DNA of 20,000 nucleotides from Psammoneis japonica (taxonomy: Eukaryota): the NCBI GenBank assembly GCA_008632985.1, contig QPGO01000074.1:371470-391469 (forward strand). Direction: 5' to 3'. How positions within the stretch are numbered: the first letter of the stretch is position 1; every line of letters begins with the position of its first letter. This document shows, one piece after another, positions 1-20,000 of the stretch. A program made the translations under genes and the position numbers. The notes beneath the pieces are model-generated. The model ran no database searches. It saw only the letters and a list, made by a program, of their open reading frames with translations, and was not told where the DNA came from.

Positions 1-1
1 C

Positions 2-2674: not shown

Positions 2675-2887
2675 GAGAAATACAATAGTAGTGTTGTAGT
2701 AGCGTAGTAGAAAAAGAAAAATGATTGTTGTTGCTTTTTTAGACTTGTCTATATAGGAAATAGCTTTAGCACGAGTACGGCATGTTCCGGTATCGCGATT
2801 TTGTTGAGATGGTTTCTGTTCCTTCACAACATATTGGGAACGAATGAAGCAACACTATTTAGACTACAGAACGGCTAGAGCAAGGCG

Positions 2888-3698
2888 TTATCGCCCTTCT
2901 AGAAACACTGCATTTCCCTTGGTGGAGTCTTTGATTGACTCTTTTAACCTTGCAAGGTCCTTTGTTTCACACGTTGCCGTGACTGTCATGTCCCCATTTG
3001 CTTCGTATTCTTCGTCACTAATCTCTCCACCCACCCTTCGCACAACGTCATAGATGGAACCGACATGCACCGACGATAGCTTGACGTGTATACTGGATTT
3101 TGGAATGAGAATTACTTTGGGTGCCTCTCGCAAAACGAGCCGTGCCGCTCCACCATAGGCACGAATCAACCCACCCGCTCCAAGCTTGATGCCTCCAAAG
3201 TATCTCACTACAACACAAACCACGTTTGCAAGTGATTCTCCCTTGATGGCACCCAAGATGGGTACACCCGCGGTTCCCGTGGGTTCACCATCATCAGAAC
3301 ATCGTTCTTGTTCGATGCCTCCATTATTATGGCATAAAATCCAAAACAGCATGACGACATTTTGGATGCATGGATCTCACGTGTTGCATCACATCTTGTG
3401 CTTGTTGCCACGAGTCCACGTTTTGTGCGTATCCAATAAACCGACTCTTTTTCACTTCCATTTCAGATTCATGCAATCCAACATCCAGAGTCGTTTGCTC
3501 GTGCATAACAGCCAAGGAATCATTATCATCCGTACTTTTGCCTCTGCAAACAACAACATTTCGAAACATGCCATGGTGGCGTTGTTGCTGTTGTTGACGC
3601 ACTACTGCAAGAGCCAGAGAGAACATGTCCTTTCTTTGTTGCAATACTAAAGAAAACATGATGATCCCTATACGAATAATTGCTCTACTGCAACTCAT
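2888..3698 (-). CDS. IMPACT/YigZ (UPF0029) family protein with an N-terminal extension; apparent frameshifts near 3330-3350
   Basis: EVKKSRFIGYA...HPKCRHA in ORF 3327-3719 continues into SDDGEPTGTAGVPILGAI...VVVRYFGGIKLGAGGLIRAYG in ORF 2888-3352. Start codon uncertain (ATG at 3698 or 3659). Confidence 0.92.
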
Positions 3699-3795
3699 TA
3701 TTGACGTTACCGATGTCAATGTGGTGGTGATTCAATGAAAATGGGCCATGGTCCATCGTGATGGATGGAAGGGAAGCGGTGCACAGCGGTACGTG

Positions 3796-3892
3796 TTTTC
3801 ACAAACCGGCGACTGTGCTCTAGCTTAGGTCTGGGTTGAGCGCGCGAGCGCGTGTCAGGTGCCCATTTTTCACGAACAGGCGACTGTGCTCT
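3796..3892. repeat. 26-bp imperfect direct repeat in the divergent YigZ/DnaJ intergenic region
   Basis: TTTTCACAAACCGGCGACTGTGCTCT (3796-3821) versus TTTTCACGAACAGGCGACTGTGCTCT (3867-3892), 24/26 identical. Confidence 0.8.
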
Positions 3893-4112
3893 TCGAGAAT
3901 TGGCGGGAAAAGAAAAAAAAGTCGTCGCTCCCGCGATGATCCTCCACGCGTCTCGTTCGCGTCGTCCATGACCGAGTTGCCAATAAGACGACGACCATAC
4001 TCATTACATTGCTTTCATCAAAAGCTCGAAAGCTTCTATCTGAATATTGTTTATAGATTGAGGAAATCAAAATGAAAATGGCAACAAAAAATCGAAAAAA
4101 GATCGACGATGC

Positions 4113-6073
4113 ATGATTGACACCGGTATTCCATCCGCATGTTGGATGGGATTGCCATTATTTGCCTTGCTATTCTTGTTTTGCTTTTGCAACAATGCTT
4201 TTGCACAACCCACATCATCATGTGCACCGCCATCGACTGATACATATGATTGGGAAAAATATGACTTTTATCAAGTCCTTGGGCTATATTGCCAGAACAA
4301 GACGGTAGCAAAAAATCTCGCAAACAACGACGCAAGGAACGCTCACGCTTCAAATCTGCCGATATTCGAAAGGCCTATCGCAAACAAGCACAGCTATTTC
4401 ATCCAGACAAGTTGGCTTCCAAGAAATCAACAACAACAAACAACAATGCTACGACATTGACAAAAGAAGAGAGTACGGCTCGTTTTGCCCGAATTGCAGA
4501 AGCATATGAAGTACTGAGTGATGAGAATAAACGCTACGAATACGATGAATTGCTTTTGGATTGTGAGGATCAACAATCCATGTCAAAACAAGCACCAAAA
4601 CAACAGCAACAAGGGTATGATGCTGGAAACAACAATCCTTGGTCCTTTTTTGACGACCTCACGACGGATCCATGGCATGTCTTTGAAGACTTTTTCTTTG
4701 GAGAATCATCCTTTCACGAGCAGGCCAACAACCGAGCCAAGGATACAATGAATTGGGACGACGGTAGATCACAACATTTCACGGATGACTCTACTACTAA
4801 TCCACGTCGAGTATACGAACGCGAGGAATTTCATTATGATCCCTACCGCAGAGTGGAAGTTCTTCGTATCTTGAGGACGGAAGAATTTGACGTGGATCCA
4901 CAAAACCACTCCTACTACTACCGGGTGATTGCTCAGGACTTTGTAGAACAGCACGATCCATTTCATGGGTGGGAATATCATCCAATCAATCATGCCTTTG
5001 TCATTGATGAAGGCTACAAACGAGAGCAACAACAACAGCAAGAGCATTCCAGGGCGTCGGATAATAATTTCGAAAACAGCCATCGCCAATACAAGGACAA
5101 ATTGCTCGCGAGTGAGGCACTGTACCCTTCTTCGGAACCATTGTTGACGTCTTTAAATGGCCGCTACTACGCGGGAATTTCTGCGGAATGCGAAATTCTC
5201 GTCATGTCGGATGATTCCTCCCGGCACGGGCCCAACGTAAATGACAAGGTTGTGTGGTCGTCGGAAACCTTTGTTCCCGCAGCGCAGCTCATGGCTGCTG
5301 GTGGGTGCTTTCTCTCGCTTCAAGGACCGCGACTCGTTCTAGCCTTGGGCAATCCCGAGTTTCCCGGAAGCATTTTGTGGTACAGTGAGGTTTCGCGAGC
5401 CGAGGAGGCAATGGCACAGTCCTCGGGGACGGCCTTTTTTGCGCGATTGGACAATGACGGAAGTTTGGCCGTGTACAGTGAAACCATGGTGGCGTTGGAG
5501 GGAAATGACGACTACTCTGCAGAGACGCTTCGCTATCAGTGGTGGTCAAAAATGAACAACAAACTAGAGTCTTATCCGTGGTGGAAGAACTTTGTAGAAA
5601 AGGCAACGGTTCAACCAAAAACAAGGGCGGCAAAAGCCTGGGTTGCTTGTCGTTCGTGGGTTGGCAGGACGGTGCTGGGGCAAAAGATAAAGTCCAAACA
5701 ATACAATTCTTCGCGTGATTCTTCAAGTCAAGCGAGGATTCGAACAGAGGAGACGTGTATTTACGCAACCGGTATGATGGGCTGCAACTCGTCTGCCAGA
5801 AAACTGCTCCACGTAGCTTCGGATGTGAAGCAAACCATATCACACAAGGTGAGACACACCGTGTCAAGAGTAGATCAGGCAATGGACGGTTTCGCCGATT
5901 ATTTGAATGAAGAAGTGGAAGAAGATGATGATGTCTTGGACACTTTACTAAGGGTCTTGAGCGCAGCTGGAAGAGGCATTGGTAGAGCTGGTCACAAGGC
6001 AGCTCGACGAGGGGCGAACGCAGTCCGAAACACGATAGAGGAACATCGCTACAAGTTGAAACGGTCAAAGTGA
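4113..6073 (+). CDS. Signal-peptide-bearing DnaJ (J-domain) protein with a bulb-type (B-) lectin-like domain; apparent frameshift ~4286
   Basis: The hydrophobic leader (LPLFALLFLFCFCNNAFA) and YDFYQVLGL in ORF 4113 join IRKAYRKQAQLFHPDK...FARIAEAYEVLSDENKRYEYD in ORF 4289-6073. The region 5141-5480 (LTSLNGRYY..VVWSSET..LSLQGPRLVL..ILWYS..RLDNDGSLAVY) resembles B-lectin repeats. Confidence 0.85.
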
Positions 6074-6179
6074 CTAGACCGTCTGGGATCTTCACGAATG
6101 TGGCACTTCTACGATGGAGTTGCATGAGTCATCTACAACTTGGCGAGTGCTACATTGCCGGCTTACAATGTTTCTGATT

Positions 6180-7268
6180 TTAATGATGGAGTTTGGCCTT
6201 TAGAATCTCCAGGTGTCTTTCGTAACGAAGTTGGTAATTCTCCGAGTTGCCTAATGTCTTGGCCTTGGATATCAAATTTTCCAAAGCTTTGACGTGAGCT
6301 GTTTCCAGGGCTTGTTCTTGGGCCACCTTGATGTCCGGCTCAACTCCTGTTCCTTCCCAGTTGGTTTTGGTAATGGGATTGATGGCTCTGCCTTTGGGAA
6401 CCCACACGACAAAACGGTCCGTCGCAATCTCGACTCCACCGGGATGCGCTCCTCCGCCGGTAGTTTCTCCCACGATTACGGCCCTCTTCAGGTTTTTCAG
6501 ATTGTATGTGAATTCTTCCGCGGCCGAAAACGTGCGTTTGCTGGTCAAAATATAAGCTTCGGCGTTGGACCCAATCCTCTTGCCGGGGACATGAGGCAAC
6601 GTCGAAAAGTGTTCCATGGTATCGTCATCACGCCAATAAAAGCTGTTGAGGTGTACGGGTTTTTGTTCGGCATCATAGAGGTAGCTGGTGAGCAACTGGA
6701 TCATTGTTGGGCAACCACCATTGTTGTTTCGGAGATCGAAAATGAGGGCGTTGCAGTTGGCCACCAAATTCATGGCGGCAACGGCCGTTTCTCCCGCGAC
6801 TTGGGCTGCTGAGAAACTGCGAAGATCAATATAGCCTATGTTGCCCAACAGAATCTTGATTTCCTTGAAACCAAAGTTGCCAAATCGAAGTTCTTCGAGC
6901 AGACTTTCAGAAAGTTTTTCATAATTATCGTCAACATCATCTTCCTTTTCTTTTTCCGTCTGAGCCCGTATTTGTTGCACATTGCCGGGGTCAAAATCAA
7001 CGCGAAGATGCCCGTCGTGACTCACGGATTGCAAATCCTTTGTCAACCTGTCCGCATAGTGGCGAGCGTCGACCAGAGAGCTGTATTTCTTATCATTCAC
7101 ATTCTGCTCTAGCAGGGCAGCCATCTTTTCGGCTACGTCCGGAAATACGTATTTTTCACTGAGCAATCGGTTGATGCTTGTGACGACTTCTAGTTGCTCT
7201 TCTTCAGTGACTGCCACGTCTGCGGCGGTTGCTTCTGGCACTTCATTCGCTTCTTGGTCGGCCTTCAT
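6180..7268 (-). CDS. S41 family peptidase (IRBP-module-like), 362 aa, intronless
   Basis: Motifs YVFPDVA, LTKDLQSVSHDGHLRV, GNIGYIDLRSF, LIFDLRNNNGG, TFSAAEEF (catalytic Ser region), VGETTGGGAHP, NWEGTGVEPDI. Start taken at MKADQE (7268). Confidence 0.93.
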   Translation of the reverse strand: MKADQEANEVPEATAADVAVTEEEQLEVVTSINRLLSEKYVFPDVAEKMAALLEQNVNDKKYSSLVDARHYADRLTKDLQSVSHDGHLRVDFDPGNVQQIRAQTEKEKEDDVDDNYEKLSESLLEELRFGNFGFKEIKILLGNIGYIDLRSFSAAQVAGETAVAAMNLVANCNALIFDLRNNNGGCPTMIQLLTSYLYDAEQKPVHLNSFYWRDDDTMEHFSTLPHVPGKRIGSNAEAYILTSKRTFSAAEEFTYNLKNLKRAVIVGETTGGGAHPGGVEIATDRFVVWVPKGRAINPITKTNWEGTGVEPDIKVAQEQALETAHVKALENLISKAKTLGNSENYQLRYERHLEILKAKLHH

Positions 7269-7825
7269 GATTTGCACGTGGAACAATACAACGTTGTCAA
7301 AACACAAAACAATGGTACGAGAAGGACAACAAATGCTCGTGGTTTCTGCGTTGTTGCAAGCATCAGATGAATCAATTATGCAACACTGCTGCTGAAACCA
7401 AAACAGTAGCAACGTAGTGCACTGTGGATGCCAAAAAGTGAGAGACAGAGGTTCGAACGTGTTCCATCAAGTAGGGCCTTCCATGATCCAAGATCTGGAT
7501 TCGATCGACGAAAAGATCGCGGACCGGGCGGGTTAGCGATGTTTTGTTCCCGTCTCAAGATTAAAATTCCATGTTTTATATATCCAAAATTGACTATTGT
7601 ATTAATTTGTTACCAACTTATTTACGTGTATGATACCGTATGAAAGGAAATGATTGTGTCTTGAAAAGCCATCAACACGAATGGTTTTTCTGTCCATTCA
7701 CGATTCAACTCCTCCCGCTCGGAAATTGCGACGTGGAGCCTACCTCCGAGCTATGGACATGGACAAAAAAGAACGGCCAGTGGCGCTTGCGAGGCCAACA
7801 ACAAAGTGGTTGTATACAATACAAG

Positions 7826-9283
7826 ATGATTGGACGCCATAGCATCATTGGACACCGTCGTAGTTTAACCTCTTTGGAACGTGATCCGTTGCTCCCGCCA
7901 CCACACCATCCTCATCACGACCATCGCCCGAGTCAAGCACGTCGAGCCTCGTTGGCAAACATAACTGCGAATCATGAAGAGGGAGAAGTTTCCGTTGTGG
8001 AGCTGTTTTCTGACCTTGTGGTGGTTGTGGCTCTGCATAATTTGTCAGATATGCTCGGTGAAGGCACTGTTGGTTTGCACATGTATTTTTTTCAAGTCCT
8101 TCTGCTCTGGTGCCTCTGGCACAACTGTATTCTCATGATGAATCTGGCCAACATTTACACGGCCAACGAACCAAAAACATGGCATCACATTGTAGTGTTT
8201 ACCGTTATGGGATCAATTGTATTCATGACAACGTCTGAAAATCCTCTTTCCATGTTGATCGCCTTTTGGGTGGGAAGAGCCGTGCAATTGGTCGCCGTTG
8301 TAGTCATGGGAAACTCGAAACGACCCGTCTGGGTCGATCACGAGTGGCATGAAAACATGGTAAATCTATGCTTCGTTGTGATTCCCTTCAAGGCACTTTT
8401 AGAAAGTGTACCTCTTTTGGTCACGTTGTCTGTGTTGCAAAGTGACCGATTGGTGTTACTTGGCGGCGTAGTCTCGGCTGCTGTCGGCATTGGTTTCCAT
8501 TTATATTCTGCAAACATGCACGATGTCGTAGAAAAGGAACGGATGGGTTCAGTCAAAGTACTGGACGTTGAACACCTCACGGAGCGGCATGAGCTCGTTG
8601 TACTCATTCTCTTTGGTGAATTGTGCTTTGCCGCTGCATCATCGTCGGGCGCATATTACATGTCGCTTTGCACTCTCTTGACCGTCTTTGGGTGCTTCTT
8701 GTTGTACTTTGCAACACGTGTACCGGAGCGCCAGGAGCCTTGGACGCGATCGGCAGTGACAAATGCGCTCTGTCAGTACTTTCATTTGCTTTTGATGGGT
8801 GTTATGCCTCTCATTAGTGTCGGATTCACTAGGCTCATTTTGCATGCAGAAGGCAAGGAAGATGATGACAATGAACACGATGGTGTGGCGGCATTGCATT
8901 TCGCCACGGCTGGCTTCTTGTGGGTCATGGGACTGATTGACTTGATTGCTGCTGACCCCGAAAATCCTCGCAAGCAACCTCGATGGAGAAGGAGATATCG
9001 GCTGCTTCTTAGATTTGCAGGTGGATGCATCGTGGCCTTACTCTATTGGCTCCCTAGAAATTCAGATGTTGTGGCAGCGACCATTGCACCCTCTACGTTG
9101 CTCACCGTGGCCGCTATTGAGATGTGGGCCGTGCAGTTGGTTGATGTTTCTCTCGAGGATGATCCACAGCCACCGGGTTTGTTAGGGCGCAGTCGACGAT
9201 TGGGTGTGCTGTCGGACAATTCATTAGATGCGTCGGGCAGGTCAGTCGACGACAAAGATGATGGCGTGTCAAATCACTCCTAA
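7826..9283 (+). CDS. LtrA (low temperature requirement A)-like multi-pass membrane protein
   Basis: EVSVVELFSDLVVVVAL and EHLTERHELVVLILFGE match the LtrA-family ELFxDLVFV and HLxERxxLxxIIxLGE motifs. Many hydrophobic segments. Start uncertain (7826 preferred over 7640). Confidence 0.8.
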   Translation: MIGRHSIIGHRRSLTSLERDPLLPPPHHPHHDHRPSQARRASLANITANHEEGEVSVVELFSDLVVVVALHNLSDMLGEGTVGLHMYFFQVLLLWCLWHNCILMMNLANIYTANEPKTWHHIVVFTVMGSIVFMTTSENPLSMLIAFWVGRAVQLVAVVVMGNSKRPVWVDHEWHENMVNLCFVVIPFKALLESVPLLVTLSVLQSDRLVLLGGVVSAAVGIGFHLYSANMHDVVEKERMGSVKVLDVEHLTERHELVVLILFGELCFAAASSSGAYYMSLCTLLTVFGCFLLYFATRVPERQEPWTRSAVTNALCQYFHLLLMGVMPLISVGFTRLILHAEGKEDDDNEHDGVAALHFATAGFLWVMGLIDLIAADPENPRKQPRWRRRYRLLLRFAGGCIVALLYWLPRNSDVVAATIAPSTLLTVAAIEMWAVQLVDVSLEDDPQPPGLLGRSRRLGVLSDNSLDASGRSVDDKDDGVSNHS

Positions 9284-9611
9284 AAGCATTACCTTTTGTG
9301 CATAGGTCGTACTGTACTCTATCTCCAAGTGAAGATACAGACAGAGGACATTAATCAAGGACCTTTCCACTATGTATCTTTTCCCCACGTGCTATAGGCT
9401 TAACCGTAGTAGCCCATTTCAGGCAATGGCTGAAAGTGGAGAAGGGTGTTGTAGCTACAGAGTTTTCGGAGAAGGTATTCGACTGTATTCGTAGGCAAGA
9501 ATAACTCTTTGTTTTCGTGCGGAGCGAGTTTGAAAATTAAATTCGAACAATCTATGCTGTACCAGGGGTCGGCTTCTATGAGCCACACACAGTCCGCCAC
9601 ATGTACGGGTT

Positions 9612-9956
9612 CTAGACCTGCCAGAAACCGCAGTCAATTCCACCTTGAATTACAATGGCAAAGATTCCCTCGCCCGGTATCTCCATTGGATCCATGGCAA
9701 CTTTTGCTCCGGCCTTAACAGCCGCCTTGACGGCAGCATGAATGTCCTCAACAAGCATGTACGGTCGCACAACTGGAGTTTCCGTTTCCCGCATGGGCAT
9801 GCGAAGCCCAATCTTTCCTCCATTCAAAAAATCTGCGGTTCGGGCCCCACCAAAATTGGCATTGGGCTCGCTAAATGTCACACCGTGAATTGCCGAGTAC
9901 TGCTCGCACAAGGCATCAACTTTTGATGTGACAATCTCAAGATAATGGACTTTCAT
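9612..9956 (-). CDS. VOC/glyoxalase-bleomycin-resistance superfamily protein, 114 aa, bacterial-like
   Basis: MKVHYLEIVT...VVRPYMLVEDIHAAVKAAVKAGAKVAMDPMEIPGEGIFAIVIQGGIDCGFWQV has the typical VOC C-terminal pattern. Confidence 0.88.
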   Translation of the reverse strand: MKVHYLEIVTSKVDALCEQYSAIHGVTFSEPNANFGGARTADFLNGGKIGLRMPMRETETPVVRPYMLVEDIHAAVKAAVKAGAKVAMDPMEIPGEGIFAIVIQGGIDCGFWQV

Positions 9957-10699
9957 GGGCGTCCCTTTTTGTTGATGAAATCGAATTGACTGTCGAATCA
10001 ATAATAAACAGCAGAAGACAAGCCTATCTTCAATCTCAAGAATCTGCAACAGTAGAATGGCAACAAAGCAAAAAAAAAAAAAAAGATCTTTCGCAAGATC
10101 CACCAGCTGTCGTACCGGTACCAGCAATCAAGAAAAAAATGGCCAAAGAGCGCATTCACCTAAACTGTAACAAAAGCTCTATCGTGCCTTTGACGACTCG
10201 ATGACAGGATCCATCGCATCGGTCCGCCACCATGGTTGTTGTTGGTCCAGCTGCAAAGCTGTGATGCTTGCCATCTTGATCGGCAAATTCAAAGTCGGCC
10301 TCACAATGTCGCTGCTCCCTGCTTTCTTCCACATGGTGGTGCGTGGTGCTCTCTGCGATTCTGAAGCAGCCAGCTGCTCCTTCATCACAGGCAGCCCAAC
10401 CTTCTCAATGCATTTGAGTTGCTCATCGATTGCAGATTTTAGTGGGCATGCCCCATCAAACCCTGCACAAAGCTCCTGCAGTGTCTCTCTGGTGACACCA
10501 GCATGATCAGCACAAGCCAGCGCAACAAGAGAGCTGTGTTTTCTGACGTGAGCTGGCCTGGTGGCTGCTTTGCTTTTTCCACTGGAGCCACCACCCCGCA
10601 TTTCCTTCTGACAATGGGGAGAATGCCAAACTTCTTTCAAGATTAATGGCAGATTGGTTCTGGCCACCAAGCATCTTGCATCATGACACCACACTTTCA

Positions 10700-11727
10700 A
10701 CTGTGATTCAGCGCATCTTTCATTCGCTCGTCATCCGCTTTGATGCTGGACTTCCTGCAGCCACCAGCCATGTTGTCAAATGAGTCTAATGCAAAATTTT
10801 CTTTGTTGTCAAGGAGCTGCAGGACTCTTCCTCTGCTTTGCTGCTTCTGCAAAAATCTGCTTGGCTTTCTCATTGGGGAATGACTTTTCCAGGCATGGGA
10901 GCAAACCAGAAACGATGAAGCGGGCATTGGCAGAGTTGTGTGGAATGAAAGAAAATGTGACTGTGTCATCTTCTTGCTGGCATTGGTTGTCATGGTGCAA
11001 AAATCAAGCAAACCATTTGCCTCACAGGAAATGATCAGTGAGTGGAGAGAGTCGATTTTGACACCTTGCGGGGGGGGGGGGAAGACCAACCCTGCAATTT
11101 TGCAGGATTGACGTTCTGCAGCATGCGCTGTTTCCATGATGTTGTCACAGAAGTTTTTCTGATTGTCGCGGAGCCTCTTGCACTTGAACTCACAGTTTGC
11201 TGTTGCAAGGAATTTGTTCGCAGGGATGAAGTGTGCCCAAGTGTCAAGAGGAAACTCAACAGCCATGGATGAGCAAATGTCAGACACAGCATTGATGGCA
11301 TGGTTGCAGTCTCTTGTTCATGAGCAGCCTCATCATGAAGGATGCACGTGGGGTTCCTTCACTTGCACGCAGTCATTGTTGAGTTAAATCCTGGTCTTCC
11401 AGAGGCAATCACATGCCAGCGGAGGTCAGCTCTGCTCTTTTTCCATGTTTGGTCTAGATGCCTGCAAAAGTCAATCCGTCTAAGTGTTCCACATGAAAAT
11501 GCTGCGTGCACTGCCAGAAGATGCACAATTTATGTTCAAAATTGATTGTCGTTTTGTGCGTCACCGGGACCAGAACACGTCAAACAGCCATCCAATGTTG
11601 GGAGTTTTCTCAACATCTGGGGCAGCATGGAAATGAAGCCCATGTGAAGCTGCACTCAGCTCAGGTTGGGTCTTGTCAGTGAGTGCATTTGCACTGATTG
11701 TGGAGGCCAGAAAAATCAAAGCATGGT
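10700..11727 (-). pseudogene. Decayed repeat-associated ORF (possibly non-LTR retrotransposon ORF1-like), 3' part, interrupted by the LTR element
   Basis: Protein-like fragments in shifting frames: ALIFLASTISANAL..NIGWLF, SDICSSMAVEFPLDTWAHFIP..KRLRDNQKNFC, TVTFSFIPHNSANARFIVSGLLPCL. Family assignment is from recalled resemblance only. Confidence 0.35.
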
Positions 11728-11731
11728 GCAT

Positions 11732-12200
11732 TGAAGCAGGCATCCCTGCCATGTGGCTGCCAATGATGCCACTTTCCTGCGTCTGCAGGCTGTCCGCAGC
11801 AATGCTGATCCCGCAGAAGCATGTTGTAGAAAACACGACTCCCAGTGCAAGACCTGAGACAGGCTACAGGAGTGACCCACGCGACTGAGACCAGCGCGAC
11901 TGGCCATCGCGCACGTGACTCACCTTGCATGAAGGGTCTGCGCATCGCGCAGGATGCAGGGCCCTGCGCAGTGCCGAGCATGAGCCTGCGAATTGGCTCC
12001 ACATGAGTGTCAATGAGTGCCACAAAAGACTTGTGCTTGAGTCTTTCCAATGACTCATCATGCAACAAGAATTCTTGTTTCTTAGAAAAGAACACCATCG
12101 CGCATTTGTGCTCTAACTAAAACAATCTCATAATTTTCACAACACCCAAATCTATCTCTGCAGCGTTGCAAGCACTTGTTCCCCATTTCTGCATGGGTCA
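11732..12200 (+). repeat. 5' LTR (469 bp)
   Basis: TGAAGCAGGCATCCC...CTGCATGGGTCA; aligns end to end with 13700-14213. Confidence 0.92.
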
Positions 12201-12218
12201 TGGCGACATTGCTCCCGG
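12201..12218 (+). promoter_or_regulatory. Putative primer-binding site
   Basis: TGGCGACATTGCTCCCGG begins immediately after the LTR-terminal CA; TGG is complementary to tRNA CCA. The cognate tRNA is not identified. Confidence 0.7.
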
Positions 12219-12248
12219 CAAGTGCAAGAACAGTTTGCTTGGTTGACA

Positions 12249-13436
12249 ATGAAGGTCGGACAAACAGCGCTTAGCGCATTCATGACACTGGCGGTCGTTC
12301 CACCGATTGCCTTTCAACGTCCGGTCCCCAGGGTTCTGAAAGAGAACCAAAGTCAGACGTGCAAACTGCACACGAACCCAAATGACCCAGATGGTCCTGC
12401 GCATGAACTTGCGGTCACCTGCTTCTCGGCGCAGTCACCTGAAGAATGGCTCCTTGTTGTAAAGGACTGTGACCGTGCATGCATCAGGCAGAACATTGCG
12501 ACAGGACCCGGTGAATTTTTGCTCACAAGAAGGCTGTTAGAGGGTGATGCCCTTGCTGCCTTTGACAATGCAGCGGCGAACGAAAATGCAGAAATGGCAA
12601 TGTTGTTGGCATGTTGCATGGCTGCTGTCACCAAAAGTGTTTTCCCAGAAAGGGCTGCATTGACACAGAAGTGCCGTTTAAGGCATTTCATGCAAAAGCC
12701 GTTAGATGTCAAAATTCGTGAGCATGTCACTCGTGCCATAGAAATCAATGAGTGCATTCCAAAATTTCCACCAGTTGAAGACAATGGACAAGCTCCGCAA
12801 GTGCCATCCGAAGATGAGTTGGTTGATTTGTTGGAATGTGGCATTCCACGGCTGTGGCAGCGCCAAATGAAGTTGCAAGGATTCAATCCTTTGGCACACA
12901 CTGTTCCAGAATTTGTCTCATTCTGTGAGCATGTGGAAGAAGTTGAGGCTGCTGACAAGCTCATGGCCTCTGCCTCACCTCAAGACGACCCTGAAGACGC
13001 CAAGATGAAGTCAGCAGATGATCCGATTCCACGCTAACGATCAAGTTCCAAGAGTCCTGCACCAAGCGAGTTGATGTCGGCAGCAAAGGAGTGAGTTTCG
13101 ATGATGTCAGATGGAAAACGTGGTCACCCATGCATGCTTCACGGTGCATGCAACCCCAACACTGACGATTGTTGGTCTCTGAAACGTCAGGTCAAGAAGC
13201 TCAAGACTTTGGATGCACACAGATCCGAGTGCAAGAATGCGCACAAGCGTGACACTGGCGCAAGCAAGGAAGAAATCAACATCATCATTGAACAAGCCAC
13301 AAAAAATGCATTGAAATGTGTGGCACGTGATGACGCGAAGGCAGACAGTGAACTTCATGCCTTTGACAACGCATGCCTCTCTGAAGATTCTGATGCTGAC
13401 ACCGATGATGTGGCAGCAACGAGTCTCCAAGAATGA
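12249..13436 (+). pseudogene. gag: Mutated gag with two in-frame stops (TAA 13035, TGA ~13092) and a degenerate C-terminal Zn-knuckle
   Basis: KLHTNPNDPDGP..SPEEWLL..QNIATGP..RRLLEGDALAAF..VFPERA..KP..EINECIPKFPP..DELVDLLECGIP..WQRQMKLQGFNP..EFVSFCE resembles diatom gypsy gag. ORF 13101-13436 is in the same frame and carries CMLHGACNPNTDDC. Confidence 0.85.
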
Positions 13437-13690
13437 TGGCCGACATGGCAGTGACCTGTGCAACCCCAGTGGCTTGGACAATTTGACAAATGTCCCAATG
13501 CTCCTGAGTGCAGCACTCACTTGTGCATGTTCTGCTGCAGGCCACACATGGCAAAATGTCCAGTGAAATGGCAACAATGACAATGACATCCTTCATGCAT
13601 GAGAAGGCATGTGCGCTGGTTTTTTGGACACACCAACAATGTCCTTTTTCCAGCAGTGGGACCCTTCTGTCACTCATGCGACCTTGTCAC

Positions 13691-13699
13691 AGGGGCGAG
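13691..13699 (+). promoter_or_regulatory. Polypurine tract
   Basis: AGGGGCGAG lies immediately 5' of the TG that starts the 3' LTR. Confidence 0.7.
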
Positions 13700-14213
13700 T
13701 GCAGCAGGCATCCCTGCTGTGGCCGCCGATGATGCCACTTTCCTGCATCTGCAGGCTGTCCGTAGTGACGCTGATCCCACAGAAGCATGTTGTAGAAAAA
13801 ATGACTCCCAGTGTGAGCTGTCTGCAGCGATGCTGATCCCGCAGAAGTGTGTTGCAGAAAACACGACTCCCAGTGCGAGACCTGCAATGGGCTGCAGGAG
13901 TGACCCATGTGACTGAGACCGGTGCGACTGGCCATCGCGCACGTGACTCACCTTGCATGAAGGGTCTGCGCAGGATGTGCGCAGCACCGAGCATGAGCCT
14001 GCGAATTGGCTCCGCATGAGTGTCAACAAGTGTTGCAAAAGACTTGTGCTTGAGTCTTTCCAATGACTCATCATGCAACAAGAATTCTTGTTTCTTAGAA
14101 AAGAACACCATCGTGCATTTGTGCTCTAACTAAAGTGATCTCATGATTTTCACAACACCCAAATCCATCTCTACAATGTCATGAGCACTTGTTCCCCATT
14201 TCTGCACAGGTCA
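13700..14213 (+). repeat. 3' LTR (514 bp)
   Basis: TGCAGCAGGCATCCC...CTGCACAGGTCA. The length difference from the 5' LTR equals a +62 bp duplication and 17 bp of small deletions. Confidence 0.92.
13755..13878 (+). repeat. 62-bp tandem duplication inside the 3' LTR
   Basis: 13755-13816 and 13817-13878 both read GCTGTC...GCTGATCCC...GACTCCCAGTG.GA; the unit is single-copy in the 5' LTR. Confidence 0.9.
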
Positions 14214-14217
14214 GCAT

Positions 14218-14450
14218 GATTGGTTTCCCTCAACAGTTTGGGCAAATGTGGCTTTAAAGTCCTTTTGTGGTTTCACACTGTTGCAAGGGGTGTTGCTTGG
14301 GGAAAAGATTGCTGGGTCTTTGCTGTTGGCAGCACAGGCAGCAATTGCCAAGGTGGAGTCTCCTTCATCTTGGAGGATTTTGAAGAATTCCAGGCACGCA
14401 AGCTTGTCGCAGCTCCTCATTCACATGAGAGTGGGGTTTGATGGGTTGTC
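14218..14450 (-). pseudogene. Upstream part of the decayed ORF interrupted by the LTR element
   Basis: LEFFKILQDEGDSTLAIAACAANSKDPAIFSPSNTP..DFKATFAQTVEG runs up to the TSD. A 1-nt shift is needed to join HHALIFLAST on the other side. Confidence 0.35.
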
Positions 14451-16054
14451 CTTGATTTTGTGGTTCATGGCAGAGGTGATGATTGCACTTGATTGCAACA
14501 GCCGTGTTTGCATTGGATTGCAAAAGGTTTCAGCATTGCAAGGGGGGGGAGGGGGAACTCCTCAATGATTGTGGCAGAGTTCTCATTGTCATGAGCCAAA
14601 GTCATCACATGCCATTTGTGTTGGCTTGTTTGTGCACATTTTCTGCAGAGGGTGCACCAGTGAGGAGCATTGCTGTTGCACCATTGTTTTTGATGATGGG
14701 GGTGCAGTTGACCCTGGTGTGTTTGCTGCATGGCTTGAGGTTGGTGCGGGGAGGAGGCATTGTTGAGTGAGGTTGAGATGTTCCTGTGCAAAAGAGCAGC
14801 AGAAACCATGGGAAGTGTGCAGGACTTCAAAGCATTGTTGTCCACTCTGCCAAAAAGTGCAGGTCAAGCCCAACATGGTGATGCTCAATGCATGGCTTCT
14901 AATCATGCACAGCTGGGGTTCAGCAGTCAAGCTGCGGCAGGTTCTGTGCAGTCACGAGTCAAACACAGGATGTTTGAGCCTGCATTTAAGGTCTCTCTGC
15001 AGGGCTTCAGTGCTTGCATGGAATCATGGTGCTTAAATTGTGCAGGCCAGCCCCAGCTGCAATTGGGGTCCCTGAATGAAAATCAAGTCCAGCATCAGCT
15101 TCATCTTTGTCAAGATCAGCTGTGCACTCATGAGCAATTTGGTGGTGATTTTCCACATGGTTGGTTGAAGACTGGCTGGGTTGAGCATGGCAAGGTGGTT
15201 GGCCTCCTTGGCTCATGGCACAGAAGAAGAAGATCAACCAATCCACAAGCGCACATGATGAGAAGTTTTTCTGCTCTCAGCTCATGGTGGAGACAGTGCC
15301 GAAGCTCCAAAACTCAAATCCCAGAACCTCTCGTGCCAAACAGGAGTGTCAAAGGGGCACTTCTCTTGGCTGGGCTCCTTTGTGCTTTGTGGCTCAAAGC
15401 AGCTCCAGTGGCTGGGGTCCAAGAAGTCAACACACTGCTTCTCTGGGCTGCTGCACAACAATCCCCTCCTTCTGAAAATTTGGTGTCATAAATGCGCACG
15501 ATCGTACGGGTCAAATGGTCTGTCCATCAAACGATTTTCGATTTCGGCTCTGGCACTTGTTTCCCATGGAAGTGGTGGGGTCTGCGTGCACTTCTACGCA
15601 ATGCATGCTAAGAATGCTGCCAACAAATCACTTTTCCCAAGACACTTCATGGCGTTGTTGACCACTGCTCCTGCCTCACGCTGAAGCTTTCCTGCCTGTC
15701 CTTGGCATTGCAGCACTTCTTTTCATCACAATGGTTGTCAACATGAGTGAGTGTGAAGAAGAAATGGAGTCAATTGGCGAGGAAGACCTGGAGCCGCTTG
15801 ACCACAATGAGGCACTGCCGCCAAGCCTGACAGCTCCGAAACATTTGAAGATCGCCTGACAACACAAGGCATTTTACACGGAAGCTGACATGCCAGACAA
15901 AGGATGCAAATGCTTCCGAGTGGAAGAACCAGAAATCTTTGCGTGAGAGCTTCAAAGTGCCAAGGAGCGGAAGGCAGTGGAACAATCAACCATCGCATTG
16001 TGCTTTTCTGATTTGTCTTGTTCGGTTTGGTCCGGCAAGTTCAGGCTTGCACCA

Positions 16055-17233
16055 TCAGATGATGGCAGCAATTGGTGGTTGAATTGATTTGCAAAACCAT
16101 CTCAACAACTGCACTTCTGGTGTCTGGGTCTCTTTCATTGCGTTGAAGTCTTTCTCATTTAAGGAATCATTGAACACAAGAACAGCCTTCACATGAATCA
16201 GAATGAGCAACTTGAGATTCAGGAAGTTGGACTCCTTTGCAAGGAAATGCATTTTTGCAAGAGCATCTGGGTCTTCACAATTTTCATCAAGCAGATTTTC
16301 TTGTCAACTCGGGGGGCTCGGGAGAGCTTCTTGTTGCCACAGTGATTCGATGCTAACTCTTCTGCCGGCATCTGCCGGTGTGCCATCACCGACCATGCAT
16401 CAAACCCTGCTGCATCTTTGCCATGCTTTATTTTTAGTTCTGCATTGTCCACCATCAGCACAAGCCCATCTCCAGGCGCAAATTTTGCCCTGGGCTCAAG
16501 GCAGGCTGCAACAGATTCAGAAGCCTTTGCAACACCAGCCACCAACACAGATGTTGTCACTTTGAAGTTGGCAAGAGCATCTCACCAATGAGTCGCCTTG
16601 TCTTCCTTGCTTGTTCATCGTCTCCACAAAAGCGTTCACATCAGTGCCATTGACGGCAAATGCAAAAACAGACAGTGGCAAGGCCGTTCTGTTTTCTTCT
16701 GACATGAGGTGTTTGAGTGCATTTTTTGAGCTCATTGGGTCAGCCCCATTTCCTGTCATAGCCGCAGGCAAGAGCACGGACAACATGTTCTTGAACATTT
16801 TCGCAACAGTGAGTTTGGTTTGATTGTCATTTGCAGTGATGTCTCCTTTTCTATTGATTGCTGCAAATCCAACTGGGGTGTGTAGCATTTTGCCATCCCC
16901 ATCTGTTTCAACTGCCGCTTGCTCCGCAAGTGGCAGGCCATCTGTTCTGATTGTTCTTGATGCGGTGCCGTCATTTTGTTTCTCCCGGAGGAACTCCAAT
17001 GTTTGTGACTTGGTGGGGTTCCTCTTTTTCTTTTTCTTGACAGGAGCTGGGCATTCAAACTCGACTTCACTTTTTTCCAATTCACAATTTCTCTTTTGGA
17101 TGGTGCGAACTGTCGTGTGGCTGGTGGCGCGTTGATCACAATGCAGTGGGCTCTGGGATGTCTTTTCCACTGGCAAACGAACCATGAGTGAAGACAAATT
17201 TTGCAGCCTCAAGGAGTCAGAGTGACGATGCAC
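16055..17233 (-). pseudogene. Decayed coding-like sequence of unknown family
   Basis: Consecutive minus-strand ORFs (16517-17233, 16219-16560, 16055-16252) have protein-like composition, including the basic stretch PVKKKKKRNP, and no Tyr. No domain recognised. Confidence 0.3.
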
Positions 17234-18041
17234 TCCTCCTCTTGCTCCTCAGCACATTCAACACCATGCAAGTGACATTTTCAATTGTCGTCGTTGTTGT
17301 CGTAATCCGCTGGGGTCGCAACGAGATGGTGCAGGGAAGAAAGAGTGGCTTCACTTCTCCACTTCACGATTTTGAAAATTTGATTTTGGTGTGTTTTTAC
17401 GCACAAGTCTACAATCATCTGGGATGTTCTCAATCCAAGAATGCGAGCTTGGAGAGCTTTCTTGGGTCTCATGAGGGCCACAGGACAGAACAGGACATGT
17501 GATGGTGCACCCACAATGATGTGCAAACTCAGCAACGAACCTTCTGGCAGGGCCAGCTGATCAATCCGATGGAGTCAGTCAGAGTGCTTGACAACAAGGG
17601 CATGGAGTGCAATCAGAGGGAAGCACTGATGGTGTCAGAGCTGCAGATGGTTGCTCCAGTCTGGGTGCCCCCACACACATCAAGTTGCCCCAGCAGCTGG
17701 GGGCGAGCCAACCAGCCGAGCTCGCGTGCACACGGAGATCCAAGTGCCTTCCTGATGCACTGCCTGGATGACCACTCCAGAGCAGCACCTCAGACAGAAT
17801 GCAATCAGAGAGCATCTGCTGATGAGCAGCAGCAGCAAGAGCCCAGTCAACAGCTCAACAAAACTGCCAGTGCAGCCAAATCACAAGCTCTGCCCAAACT
17901 GGATCTGCTGAATGTTCCAAAGCAAGGTTCTCCCACACACTTGTACCAGAGACCAGTGCAAGTTTCAGGGACAACCATCTTCACAACAATCAACCAAGTG
18001 CTGCTGAAACAATCTATGGTGGTCCCAACATGTGCCGGTAG

Positions 18042-20000
18042 ACGGCCTGTGATCCGCAAAGCAACGAGCTAGAAATTCAGGGCGACCGGAAGATTGGGTC
18101 GGTGGACAGACGACCCTGGAGCGAGGCAACGCCAACGAACACAAACCCCAGCCATGATGATGCAAGCAATCGCGACGAGTGGCTCTCTCAGATCAAGGGG
18201 GAAATCCAGGATGAATTGGGCGCTGCATGGCGTGAAAGCCGTTGGACGGAGTTTATTGAGGAAGTATTGTGGTCCCTGCACGAGAATGATATCGTTGACG
18301 GAGACACGATTCGCACCGCCGAGGGCCTTATCAAGTGCGGAGTACGAACCAAGAAGCATCTGATTGCAATGGCCGGAAAGCCTCCCGACGATGAAAAATT
18401 GTCGAGAAAGCTTGAGGCGAAAGGCGTGTCTCTCGTCATCTGCGCTATGTTGTTCAACGAGTACGTCCATGTGAATCGAGATGGTAAGTCTGACTGGCGT
18501 TGTACATATTGAATATGTGTCAAACATACTGTACAGTATCTCGTTCTTGGTTTCTATTGTTCCATCGCATATACGGTTTCAACTATAAAAACTCATCCTG
18601 ATTGTACTTGTCTATTCTTTTCAAAGTAGCTTCACTACAGCAGCAGCAGCAGCGGACTGGCATGTTTACTGTCTTCGTGAGAAACCACAATTTGTCAGTC
18701 ACGAATGTTATTAAGTTCCACGATAAGCGTTTTCCATCGACTGTGGGTGAGTTCTGGGAGGCGACAGGCCTTGAATGGACCGTTGACTCTGCGTGTGTCA
18801 CGGTAAAAATGCTTATGGGCTGGGAAAAATTGAGCGACAATCCCAAAAATACAGCAAATTATGCTGAGGGTGACCCCAGCTTCGGGATTATGTTTCAGTT
18901 GTCGCCTTACCGTACTCCTACATCAAGTCCTATTAGCGACGAATACATCAGTATCCAGGCCGAGGAGGAGTCGAATTTTGCTGAATGTATCCAAAACTTA
19001 TTTCGCGAGAATCCTTTCAATGCAGCTATACCAGAGCTGTACGAAGACGGGGCGATCCGTGGGTTACGATTGTTCTTCCAGCAGGGAAGAGAAGAAAGAA
19101 CAAGGTCGTTGGCTTCGGAGGTGAAAACGCTTGCTCTGATATTTGCGATGCCTGGGGCAGGAAAGACTCGGACTGTACAAGAAGCAGCTCATAGTCTTGG
19201 TTTGGAGTATCACAGATTCAAGATGTCTAACGCAAACTTGTCCACGATGAGAGAGGTAAGGCAGTTCCTCTTGAAAAGGGTAGCAACACTCTGCGACTGC
19301 GAAACGAATGCGATACCTCTAGAGAGAAAGGTGCTGGTGCTTCATTTTGATGAAATTCAATCAATTATGAGAGCTCCACGTGATGACGGAGACAGAGATA
19401 ATTCCCTTGTGACCACGCTGGCCAAAGAATGTGATGCGTTGATTAACAAACATGGGGAGAACCAACGTTCGTGGCTCAAGTTTGTAATGACAGGCACCAA
19501 TATCTTCTCGGACACACAGATCAATGTGGGCAGTCAAGTGAAAACAGAATTGATACCGATGGGGGGCTCTTTTTCTCATGACTTTGTATGCCAGCTTGCG
19601 AGGAAATATAATCTCATGCCATTTTTCGCTGAAGACAACGAGAAATATCTGGAACGCTGTCGCCAACCGACGCTTTACCGAACGATTTTTCTGTGCTTTG
19701 TGGGACAAACGAGGCGAGGGCATCGCTGATCCCTCCGTTGTGGATGATGCGTATCACTCGGCACTCAGTGCAATGAGTCGACAAATTGCTGGAAACATGG
19801 GAGGAGAAACTATCAACGTATCTTCAGTTGCATGCACTGTCTTCGCAAAGATTCTGGATATCAACTCTGAGATGATAGTCAACGGCATCGCAATACTCAA
19901 AACTGTTCCATGACTGAGAAGTCTTATATTGCGGGTGGCGGGTTCAACGTGAAGGAAATGATGGGGAGCGATATTTCAATCTTCTACCCCGCTGGATGTG
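18042..20000 (+). CDS. Crinkler/RHS-like protein: helical (SAM-like) header, polyQ linker and P-loop NTPase; one intron, apparent frameshifts ~19665 and ~19910, 3'-partial
   Basis: Walker A AMPGAGKT and Walker B LVLHFDEIQ in ORF 18602-19729. The upstream exon (frame open from 18042 to 18483) splices in frame. Coding-like sequence continues in shifted frames (NRRFTERFF..., MTEKSYIAGGGFNV...). Confidence 0.65.
18484..18626 (+). other. Spliceosomal intron (phase 1)
   Basis: GTAAGT donor at 18484, AT-rich body, pyrimidine tract and AAG acceptor at 18626. The alternative TAG at 18629 is also in frame. Confidence 0.75.

What the first reader, a model, noticed from the sequence alone, without database searches (positions are those of the whole stretch)
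11732..14213. The LTR pair is an internal record of the mutational process
LTRs are identical at insertion (established). Here most substitutions fall in CG/TG/CA/TA dinucleotides. Six sites have TA in one copy and TG/CA in another: 11865 TA/13893 TG; 12131 TA/14144 TG; 12153 TA/14166 CA; 12159 TG/14172 TA; 11797 CA/13763 TA; 11827 and 13793 TA/13855 CA. Several sites are reciprocal TG versus CA (e.g. GTGCCG/GCACCG), implying independent hits on opposite strands of an ancestral TA or CG. A 78-bp stretch (12023-12100 versus 14036-14113) is identical and keeps TTAG, and the following CTAACTAA is also kept in both. Mutation therefore occurred in place after insertion, on both strands. LTR-divergence dating would overestimate the element's age.
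Basis: partly seen in the sequence, partly recalled or inferred. Interest (0 to 1): 0.8.

Follow-up and report, generated by a model that had tools for sequence, protein, structure and literature searches.

The report
TA-erasing hypermutation recorded by diatom LTRs
The two once-identical ends of a dead jumping gene in a diatom show that the DNA step TA is rewritten to TG or CA in repeats, partly after insertion and partly already in the parent copy, a mutation process described so far in one unrelated alga, which makes the usual dating of this element several-fold too old.

Summary
11732-14213 is a gag-only Ty3/Gypsy-type LTR element with a 4-bp target duplication, in a diatom. Of 41 differences between the LTRs, 39 are transitions and 35 lie in TA/TG/CA/CG steps. 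Across 25 genomic copies, columns fall into TA+TG+CA, CG+TG+CA or stable TG/CA, so TA and CG are sources and TG/CA are sinks. A TA-normal DNA-transposon copy fixes the direction: 97 of 130 TA became TG or CA (49/48) in a sister copy, and 0 of 398 went back. Conserved Tyr became Cys/His. About half the TA loss in these LTRs looks inherited from an already-mutated parent, and the 78-bp identical stretch is exhausted, not protected. Raw LTR divergence is 9.8%, against 1.6% at other sites. The closest known case is TpA hypermutation in Bigelowiella natans (2026 preprint); here it saturates the sampled repeats of both transposon classes. The enzyme is unknown; a chromatin-guided DNA adenine deaminase is my best guess. 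This scan already noted the process, and the LTR-dating point, on other pieces of the same genome.

The parts
11728..11731 (+). Left target-site duplication, GCAT
   Evidence: matches 14214-14217
11732..12200 (+). 5' LTR (TG...CA, 469 bp)
   Evidence: 49 matches in the own genome
12201..12218 (+). Probable primer-binding site (starts TGG next to the LTR); tRNA partner not tested
   Evidence: read; inference
12249..13037 (+). gag-like frame of Ty3/Gypsy type, 262 aa without a single Tyr; no pol in the element
   Evidence: related gags sit beside RT-RNaseH-integrase genes
13095..13436 (+). C-terminal remnant of the gag frame, separated from the main frame
   Evidence: similar to the end of the open gag on C196; by eye
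13691..13699 (+). Purine-rich tract just before the 3' LTR
13700..14213 (+). 3' LTR (TG...CA) with a 62-bp tandem duplication at 13755-13879
14214..14217 (+). Right target-site duplication, GCAT
12023..12100 (+). 78-bp stretch identical to 14036-14113; six TA-type columns already erased to the same state in both LTRs, one CG
10195..18070 (.). TA-erased repeat block containing the element (TA o/e 0.03-0.21 in 500-bp bins, 49 TA in about 7.8 kb); edges coincide with repeat ends
15480..17413 (.). Remnant of a terminal-inverted-repeat DNA element whose TA-normal copy on C116 polarises the changes
1..10150 (.). Host genes (gamma-COP, DnaJ, LtrA-like and others) with ordinary TA and CG; internal control, and the basis for calling the host a diatom
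18100..20000 (.). Host genes on the right (AAA-domain frame), 75 TA in 1.9 kb; internal control

Best explanation
The diatom has a targeted mutator that acts on chromosomal DNA in silenced repeat chromatin and turns T:A pairs into C:G at TpA steps only, on either strand (TA to TG or CA). SHOWN: direction, strand symmetry, strict 5'-T context with a 3'-pyrimidine preference, confinement to repeats, action on both retro- and DNA transposons, action after insertion and after the two alleles split, and a rate well above CpG decay in young copies. INFERRED: the chemistry is adenine-to-hypoxanthine deamination by a TadA/ADAT2- or ADAR-type enzyme, read as G at replication; targeting is by the same silencing mark that brings CG methylation, not by pairing of homologous copies; it disables elements by erasing Tyr codons and other TA-containing codons rather than by making stops. 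The LTR pair records two rounds: about half of its TA loss came with an already-hit parent (a non-autonomous copy needs no protein of its own and can still be mobilised), and the rest struck each LTR separately afterwards. My odds: process and direction 0.95; partly post-insertion at DNA level 0.9; adenine deaminase 0.55.
For: Column classes in 25 LTR copies: 38 TA-type (TA 204, TG 366, CA 307, CG 4), 33 CG-type (TA 2, TG 184, CA 176, CG 437), 37 stable (17 minority cells of 857). At TA-type plus five TG/CA-only columns there are 4 CG cells, where 113 are expected if the two positions were independent. TA-normal copy C116 vs sister C107: 97 of 130 TA changed (TG 49, CA 48), reverse 0 of 398, AA>AG 3 of 466, CG loss 20 of 137; TA rate about 65x other transitions and 9x CG decay. 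At 28 TA sites shared by two TA-normal copies (C116, C128), five other copies show TG or CA at 18 to 25 of the sites each covers. A followed by a pyrimidine is hit about twice as often as A followed by a purine (P=2e-5); a 5'-T, 3'-pyrimidine preference is what I recall for TadA. Tyr of the open gag on C196 faces Cys/His at 5 of 6 positions; in a copia pol 11 of 12 aligned conserved Tyr are Cys/His while Phe, Trp and His columns are unchanged. Between alleles, non-YR divergence is 0.48% in both genes and repeats, but TA-bearing sites differ at 16 of 55 in repeats and 2 of 89 in genes (P=2e-6). Host-gene duplicates at 85-95% identity in CG-normal DNA are not hit. The genome has an ADAT2-like gene, a TadA-like gene and two A_deamin-family genes. 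The same signature was measured directly in B. natans mutation-accumulation lines.
Against: Sequence cannot tell whether A or T carries the lesion. No deaminase expansion or chromatin-reader fusion was seen (9 PF00383 matches, two A_deamin loci), and ADAT genes are ordinary tRNA enzymes in eukaryotes (recalled). No methylation, chromatin or RNA data were available, so targeting rests on co-occurrence with CG loss. The inherited share rests on P=0.02-0.04 and could be LTR-to-LTR conversion. A tandem array of DNMT-like genes on C297 is hit, so duplication may matter in some settings.
Confidence: 0.6

Rival explanations
1. The lesion is on thymine: a repeat-directed enzyme, such as a diverged RID/DNMT4-like methyltransferase or an oxidase, marks the T of (purine)-TpA with a miscoding adduct (O4-methyl-T or 5-formyl-U) that is copied as C. 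This would be a true reverse RIP.
For: Same outcome in sequence. The genome has 27 C5-methyltransferase matches, several of them paralogues with one shared motif, plus duplicated broken copies. Diatom DNMT4 is related to fungal RID and has no known function (PMC9998398). RID-dependent RIP acts at CpA, a step of the same YpA type.
Against: The same paper found no DNMT4 in non-diatom MMETSP species, yet B. natans, which has MMETSP data, shows the same signature. No TET/JBP match (no positive control rang) and no N6/N4 methylase. I did not place these methyltransferases in a tree. No C5-methyltransferase is known to me to act on T.
Confidence: 0.2
2. Error-prone gap filling (polymerase-eta type, WA motif) during repair of deaminated methyl-C in repeats, as in the second phase of antibody hypermutation.
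For: TA loss and CG loss occupy the same domains and correlate across LTR copies (rho 0.53, P=0.006).
Against: TA is hit more than 100-fold more often than AA, transversions at TA are rare, the hit fraction barely depends on distance to a CG (31/38, 42/51, 37/50), and TA loss runs ahead of CG loss. Polymerase eta also hits AA and makes transversions (recalled).
Confidence: 0.08
3. No special process: CpG decay plus a context-free AT-to-GC bias (gene conversion) lowers TA observed/expected as a side effect.
For: CpG decay is present and does raise TG/CA.
Against: Forward simulation on the C116 element gave TA o/e 0.55 with CpG decay alone, and no lower than 0.21 even at 48% divergence and 72% GC. 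Observed values are 0.0-0.15 at about 48% GC. AA>AG and GA>GG stay under 1% in the C116-C107 pair.
Confidence: 0.02
4. Ordinary RIP or C-to-T change: TA is derived from CA/TG.
For: The majority state at two of the six sites is CA, and in the four-LTR set TA is a singleton at 11865 and 13763.
Against: TA is depleted, not enriched; stable TG/CA columns gain almost no TA (4 of 857 cells); 0 of 398 reverse changes; conserved Tyr is lost, and frames stay open for up to 1500 aa.
Confidence: 0.01
5. A-to-I editing of element RNA fixed by reverse transcription.
For: 5'-U preference of ADAR-type enzymes (recalled); it could contribute to the inherited half of the LTR changes.
Against: It cannot act on a DNA transposon, give both strand types intermixed in one copy, or make the two LTRs or the two alleles differ.
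Confidence: 0.03

Closest known systems
TpA-specific hypermutation of integrated viral DNA in Bigelowiella natans (Mettrop et al., bioRxiv 10.64898/2026.01.13.699255; read parts 1-3 of 5: abstract, results, discussion, conclusion, plus a term search; supplements closed)
   Same: T/A to C/G transitions only at TpA, giving TpG or CpA; local, on foreign DNA; patchy between lines or copies; ADAT2-like candidate present, enzyme unproven.
   Different: There: a rhizarian, two viral insertions, modest depletion (Rho 0.45), rate measured in culture. Here: a diatom; near-saturation (o/e 0.0-0.15) over LTR retroelements, DNA transposons and some duplicated genes; coupled with CpG decay; a 3'-pyrimidine preference; erased non-autonomous copies apparently still moved. 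The preprint's main text has no mention of diatoms, LTRs or CpG. Shared origin is untested.
Fungal repeat-induced point mutation (RIP; RID/DNMT4-dependent; passages of PMC12730594 and PMC9998398, otherwise recalled)
   Same: Dense, context-specific transitions confined to repeats; kills transposons; inflates repeat divergence.
   Different: Opposite direction (RIP makes TpA from CpA); here TA is lost and stops are not created. Duplicated host genes in CG-normal DNA are spared, and both strand types are intermixed within a copy.
Methyl-CpG decay in diatom transposons (DNMT5; PMC9998398 abstract and passages; PMC6604790 passages)
   Same: Present here as the CG-type columns, in the same domains.
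   Different: About 9-fold slower than TA loss in a young copy. In P. tricornutum mutation-accumulation lines the bias is towards AT and CG is the most mutable step; the term TpA does not occur in that paper.
Non-autonomous Ty3/Gypsy LTR elements with gag only
   Same: TG...CA LTRs, 4-bp target duplication, primer site, purine tract, gag related to elements with RT-RNaseH-integrase order.
   Different: Nothing unusual in the anatomy; the interest lies in the mutation record.

Membership tests
B. natans-type TpA hypermutation | A/T to G/C transitions restricted to TpA, both strands | tested here: met
   97 of 130 TA to TG 49/CA 48; AA>AG 3 of 466; reverse 0 of 398
B. natans-type TpA hypermutation | Confined to foreign or mobile DNA, host genes at baseline | tested here: met
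   TA o/e bimodal; allele test 16/55 vs 2/89; exception: a DNMT-like tandem array is hit
B. natans-type TpA hypermutation | About 1000-fold raised rate per generation in vegetative lines | not testable with these tools
   Only a relative rate of about 65-110x from copy pairs
B. natans-type TpA hypermutation | Patchy activity | tested here: met
   TA kept ranges from 0 of 25 to 26 of 34 among LTR copies and is unrelated to background divergence (rho 0.01)
B. natans-type TpA hypermutation | ADAT2-like protein with HxE/PCxxC and Asn at the TadA-108-like position | tested here: inconclusive
   Gene on C26 has HAE, PCxxC split by an apparent intron, and Asn at the matching place by eye; I recall this Asn as general in eukaryotic ADAT2, so it is not diagnostic
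B. natans-type TpA hypermutation | Same enzyme or common origin | not testable with these tools
   Enzyme unknown in both organisms
Fungal RIP | C to T at CpA, TpA enrichment | tested here: not met
   TA depleted; direction reversed
Fungal RIP | Triggered by duplication itself | tested here: not met
   Host duplicates at 85-95% identity on C10 unhit; C116 copy unhit beside 94%-identical relatives, though it may simply be young
Fungal RIP | RID/DNMT4 methyltransferase present and required | tested here: inconclusive
   Several C5-methyltransferase paralogues; subfamily not established (Atlas one search gave only generic hits); requirement not testable
Fungal RIP | Acts in the sexual cycle | not testable with these tools
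   No life-cycle data
Ty3/Gypsy-type non-autonomous LTR element | TG...CA LTRs with target-site duplication | tested here: met
Ty3/Gypsy-type non-autonomous LTR element | gag related to elements with RT-RNaseH-integrase order; no pol of its own | tested here: met

The most novel reading that the evidence does not exclude
The diatom process is a dedicated genome defence with its own enzyme, either a natural editor of adenine in double-stranded chromosomal DNA or a RID/DNMT4 relative that miscodes thymine. It is guided to silenced chromatin, rewrites the whole repeat compartment and occurs in more than one diatom lineage (a Tyr-less copia protein from another source fits this).
Probability: 0.35. 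Interest if true: 0.92.

Novelty: new member of a known kind. Interest (0 to 1): 0.7.

Why it matters
A mutator that raises GC at TpA runs against the usual AT-ward bias, and no enzyme for it is proven. One 2026 preprint reports it in a rhizarian alga. A diatom in which it saturates the sampled repeats extends it to stramenopiles and to both transposon classes, and puts it in a group where knock-outs are done, so the enzyme becomes findable. A natural DNA adenine deaminase would also matter for base editing. Practically, identity-based dating of diatom LTR elements (as in bioRxiv 10.1101/2025.10.24.684338, passages read; it reports an older peak in two species and never mentions hypermutation or dinucleotides) would be several-fold too old in any genome with this process. 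Majority consensus sequences misstate the ancestor, and dead elements keep long open frames that gene finders will call as genes.

Tried and rejected
Assembly or base-calling artefact: rejected, short-read contigs agree. Runs X2 and X3 laid nothing; no RNA holder listed. Strand coordination along a copy: none (runs test P=0.10-0.85 in four copies). L008/L013 first taken for a second LTR pair: rejected, same 5' flank and no target duplication, so a plain duplicate; both rows stayed in the 25-copy counts. The C171 pair (14.1% vs 2.3%) has a cut 3' LTR, so its target duplication cannot be tested. Enzyme searches: TET/JBP and MT-A70 gave no match but no control rang, so absence is not shown; N6/N4 methylase gave none with controls ringing. 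Pfam had no family for the gag or the other repeat frames; the erased copia RT frame no longer matched Pfam at E 0.001. Atlas: generic methyltransferase hits, and nothing for the DnaJ protein. Family property of the element: rejected, 9 of 9 related metagenome contigs keep TA o/e 0.44-1.00. Literature: nine full-text searches found no diatom report. Subscription journals are largely absent, and bioRxiv supplements were closed.

Full report
What the element is. 11732-14213 is one LTR-element insertion: both LTRs run TG...CA, GCAT is duplicated on either side, a TGG-starting primer site follows the 5' LTR and a purine tract precedes the 3' LTR. The interior holds only a gag-like frame, about 42% identical to five database proteins. 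Related gags lie beside RT-RNaseH-integrase genes, so it is a non-autonomous Ty3/Gypsy-type element. The flanking gamma-COP gene has diatom proteins as all its hits that name an organism, at about 79-83%. The element sits in a 7.9-kb block of repeats with TA o/e 0.03-0.21, against mostly 0.3-0.9 in the genes. The same two-state pattern holds in the other stretches fetched from the genome.

The observation. All named sites read as stated and the 78-bp stretch is identical. There are 41 substitutions in 452 columns, 39 transitions, 35 in TA/TG/CA/CG steps (P=1e-5). Short-read contigs reproduce the window and its allele.

Direction. The own-genome search gave 49 matches (40 of 104 candidates scored); 30 were fetched and 25 kept after dropping two allelic and three tandem near-duplicate rows. 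Two of the 25 later proved to be a duplicate pair. Column pairs split cleanly: 38 TA-type (TA 204, TG 366, CA 307, CG 4), 33 CG-type (TA 2, TG 184, CA 176, CG 437), 5 with TG and CA only, 37 stable, none mixed. TG and CA can both be one step from a single source only if that source is TA or CG, and CG is nearly absent at TA-type columns (4 seen, 113 expected under independence).

A neighbouring DNA-transposon family gives an outgroup. The C116 copy has gene-like TA and an open 385-aa frame. In its 94%-identical sister C107, 97 of 130 TA are TG (49) or CA (48), no TG/CA of 398 is TA, and other transitions average 1.1%. TA sites shared by two TA-normal copies are TG or CA in five others. Protein agrees: the window's gag has no Tyr, and has Cys or His opposite 5 of 6 Tyr of an open gag on C196; a copia pol has Cys/His at 11 of 12 aligned conserved Tyr with Phe, Trp and His untouched. 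Sites 12153 and 12159 lie in a poorly aligned part, and rest mainly on the C171 copy, which has TA at both. No full ancestral reconstruction was made, which leaves such columns less certain.

Properties. The change is strand-symmetric and intermixed along a copy. It needs a 5' T and prefers a 3' pyrimidine about two-fold, so YTAR motifs such as TTAA and CTAA survive longest. In the C116-C107 pair it is about 65 times faster than other transitions and 9 times faster than CG decay. It varies from copy to copy, independent of background divergence. It has acted since the two alleles split: non-YR divergence is 0.48% in both genes and repeats, while TA-bearing sites differ at 16 of 55 in repeats and 2 of 89 in genes, and CG-bearing sites at 84 of 253 and 3 of 130. 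It stops at repeat edges in this window. Host-gene duplicates in CG-normal DNA are untouched, whereas a methyltransferase-like array inside a repeat block is hit. Nine related elements from metagenomes keep their TA.

What the LTR pair really records. These hits were made in DNA after insertion. But 29 of 36 columns lost in both LTRs share the derived state, against 63-66% expected (P=0.02-0.04); this gives an inherited share of about 0.43-0.57. The simplest reading is that the parent was already partly erased and was still copied; conversion between the LTRs is the rival. The 78-bp stretch holds six such pre-erased columns and one CG, so it had little left to mutate. Its TTAG looks like a newer subfamily TA, and CTAACTAA has lost both TAs in the allelic 3' LTR. 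Raw divergence is 9.8% (36 of 393 columns), against 1.6% at non-YR sites (3 of 187, CI 0.3-4.6%), so dating is too old by about six-fold, with wide bounds. Most of the YR differences between the two LTRs are split between TA-type and CG-type columns, so CpG decay shares the blame.

Mechanism. Shown: a targeted TA-to-TG/CA process on chromosomal repeats. Inferred: adenine deamination by a TadA/ADAT2- or ADAR-type enzyme guided by silenced chromatin (0.55 for the chemistry). The genome has ordinary candidates but no visible expansion. A thymine lesion made by a RID/DNMT4-like protein is the main rival: methyltransferase paralogues are numerous and diatom DNMT4 has no known function, but it was not found outside diatoms in the MMETSP survey. 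Error-prone repair, CpG decay with GC bias (simulated), ordinary RIP and RNA editing fail on context, direction or target.

Known or new. Nine literature searches found no diatom report (listed under Tried and rejected). In B. natans, 230 of 231 mutations in two integrated viral regions were A>G or T>C, all at TpA, at about 1000 times the background rate, and an ADAT2 was proposed. The diatom case meets the sequence-level features of that process. Rate per generation, enzyme and common origin are untested, so it works like it and is probably a member. It is not RIP. This scan has already noted the process, and LTR-pair dating, on other pieces of the same genome; those notes are unchecked and are not counted as support. 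What this window adds from my own calls is the target-duplication-verified pair, the allele control, the unhit host duplicates, the inherited share, and a Tyr-less protein from another source.

Verdict. Real and well polarised; a new member of a barely described kind; enzyme open. Interest 0.7.

Noticed in passing
P0030 (ENA protein, 684 aa): One of 120 listed copia RT relatives has only 2 Tyr; 12 of 15 conserved Tyr columns are His or Cys. Its best scored match in G000 is 61% identical (65 of 1375 candidates scored), so it probably comes from another organism with the same process.
   Followed up: partly
G000:C297 about 4000-6600 and 36000-40300; C301 about 35300-36300: Duplicated C5-methyltransferase-like genes inside repeat blocks are themselves TA-erased (0-1 Tyr per frame).
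   Followed up: partly
G000:C10 about 611000-619500: Broken duplicates (85-95%) of a methyltransferase gene in CG-normal DNA show no TA loss; a useful negative control.
   Followed up: yes
G000:C297 18677-23176: Copia pol frame open for 1500 aa with 2 Tyr; many such long open frames exist in G000 and will be miscalled as genes.
   Followed up: partly
G000:C297 28426-30819: A 798-aa frame with 49 Tyr and normal TA sits as an island inside a 50-kb erased region.
   Followed up: no
G000:C196 12000-30000: TA o/e falls gradually from 0.9 to 0.16 over 18 kb of Ty3/Gypsy-type DNA, as if a domain were spreading.
   Followed up: no
L094-L096 (C62, C93, C75): Three copies 95% identical, with 0.7% background divergence, all have only 16-29 TA in 2 kb; suggests an already-erased element kept multiplying.
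   Followed up: partly
G000:C79 about 344200-345900 (L159): A second A_deamin-family gene besides the ADAT1-like one on C40; candidate enzyme, no extra domain seen in the two frames scanned.
   Followed up: partly
L121 (C79 87300-88800): Deaminase domain fused to a 2OG-Fe(II) oxygenase in one frame.
   Followed up: no
window 11450: The allelic contig C79 carries about 470 extra bases here, at a short repeat with more than 30 matches in the genome.
   Followed up: no
window 14218-15480: Strongly TA- and CG-depleted stretch with no match among the scored candidates except the allele; probably an old repeat.
   Followed up: no
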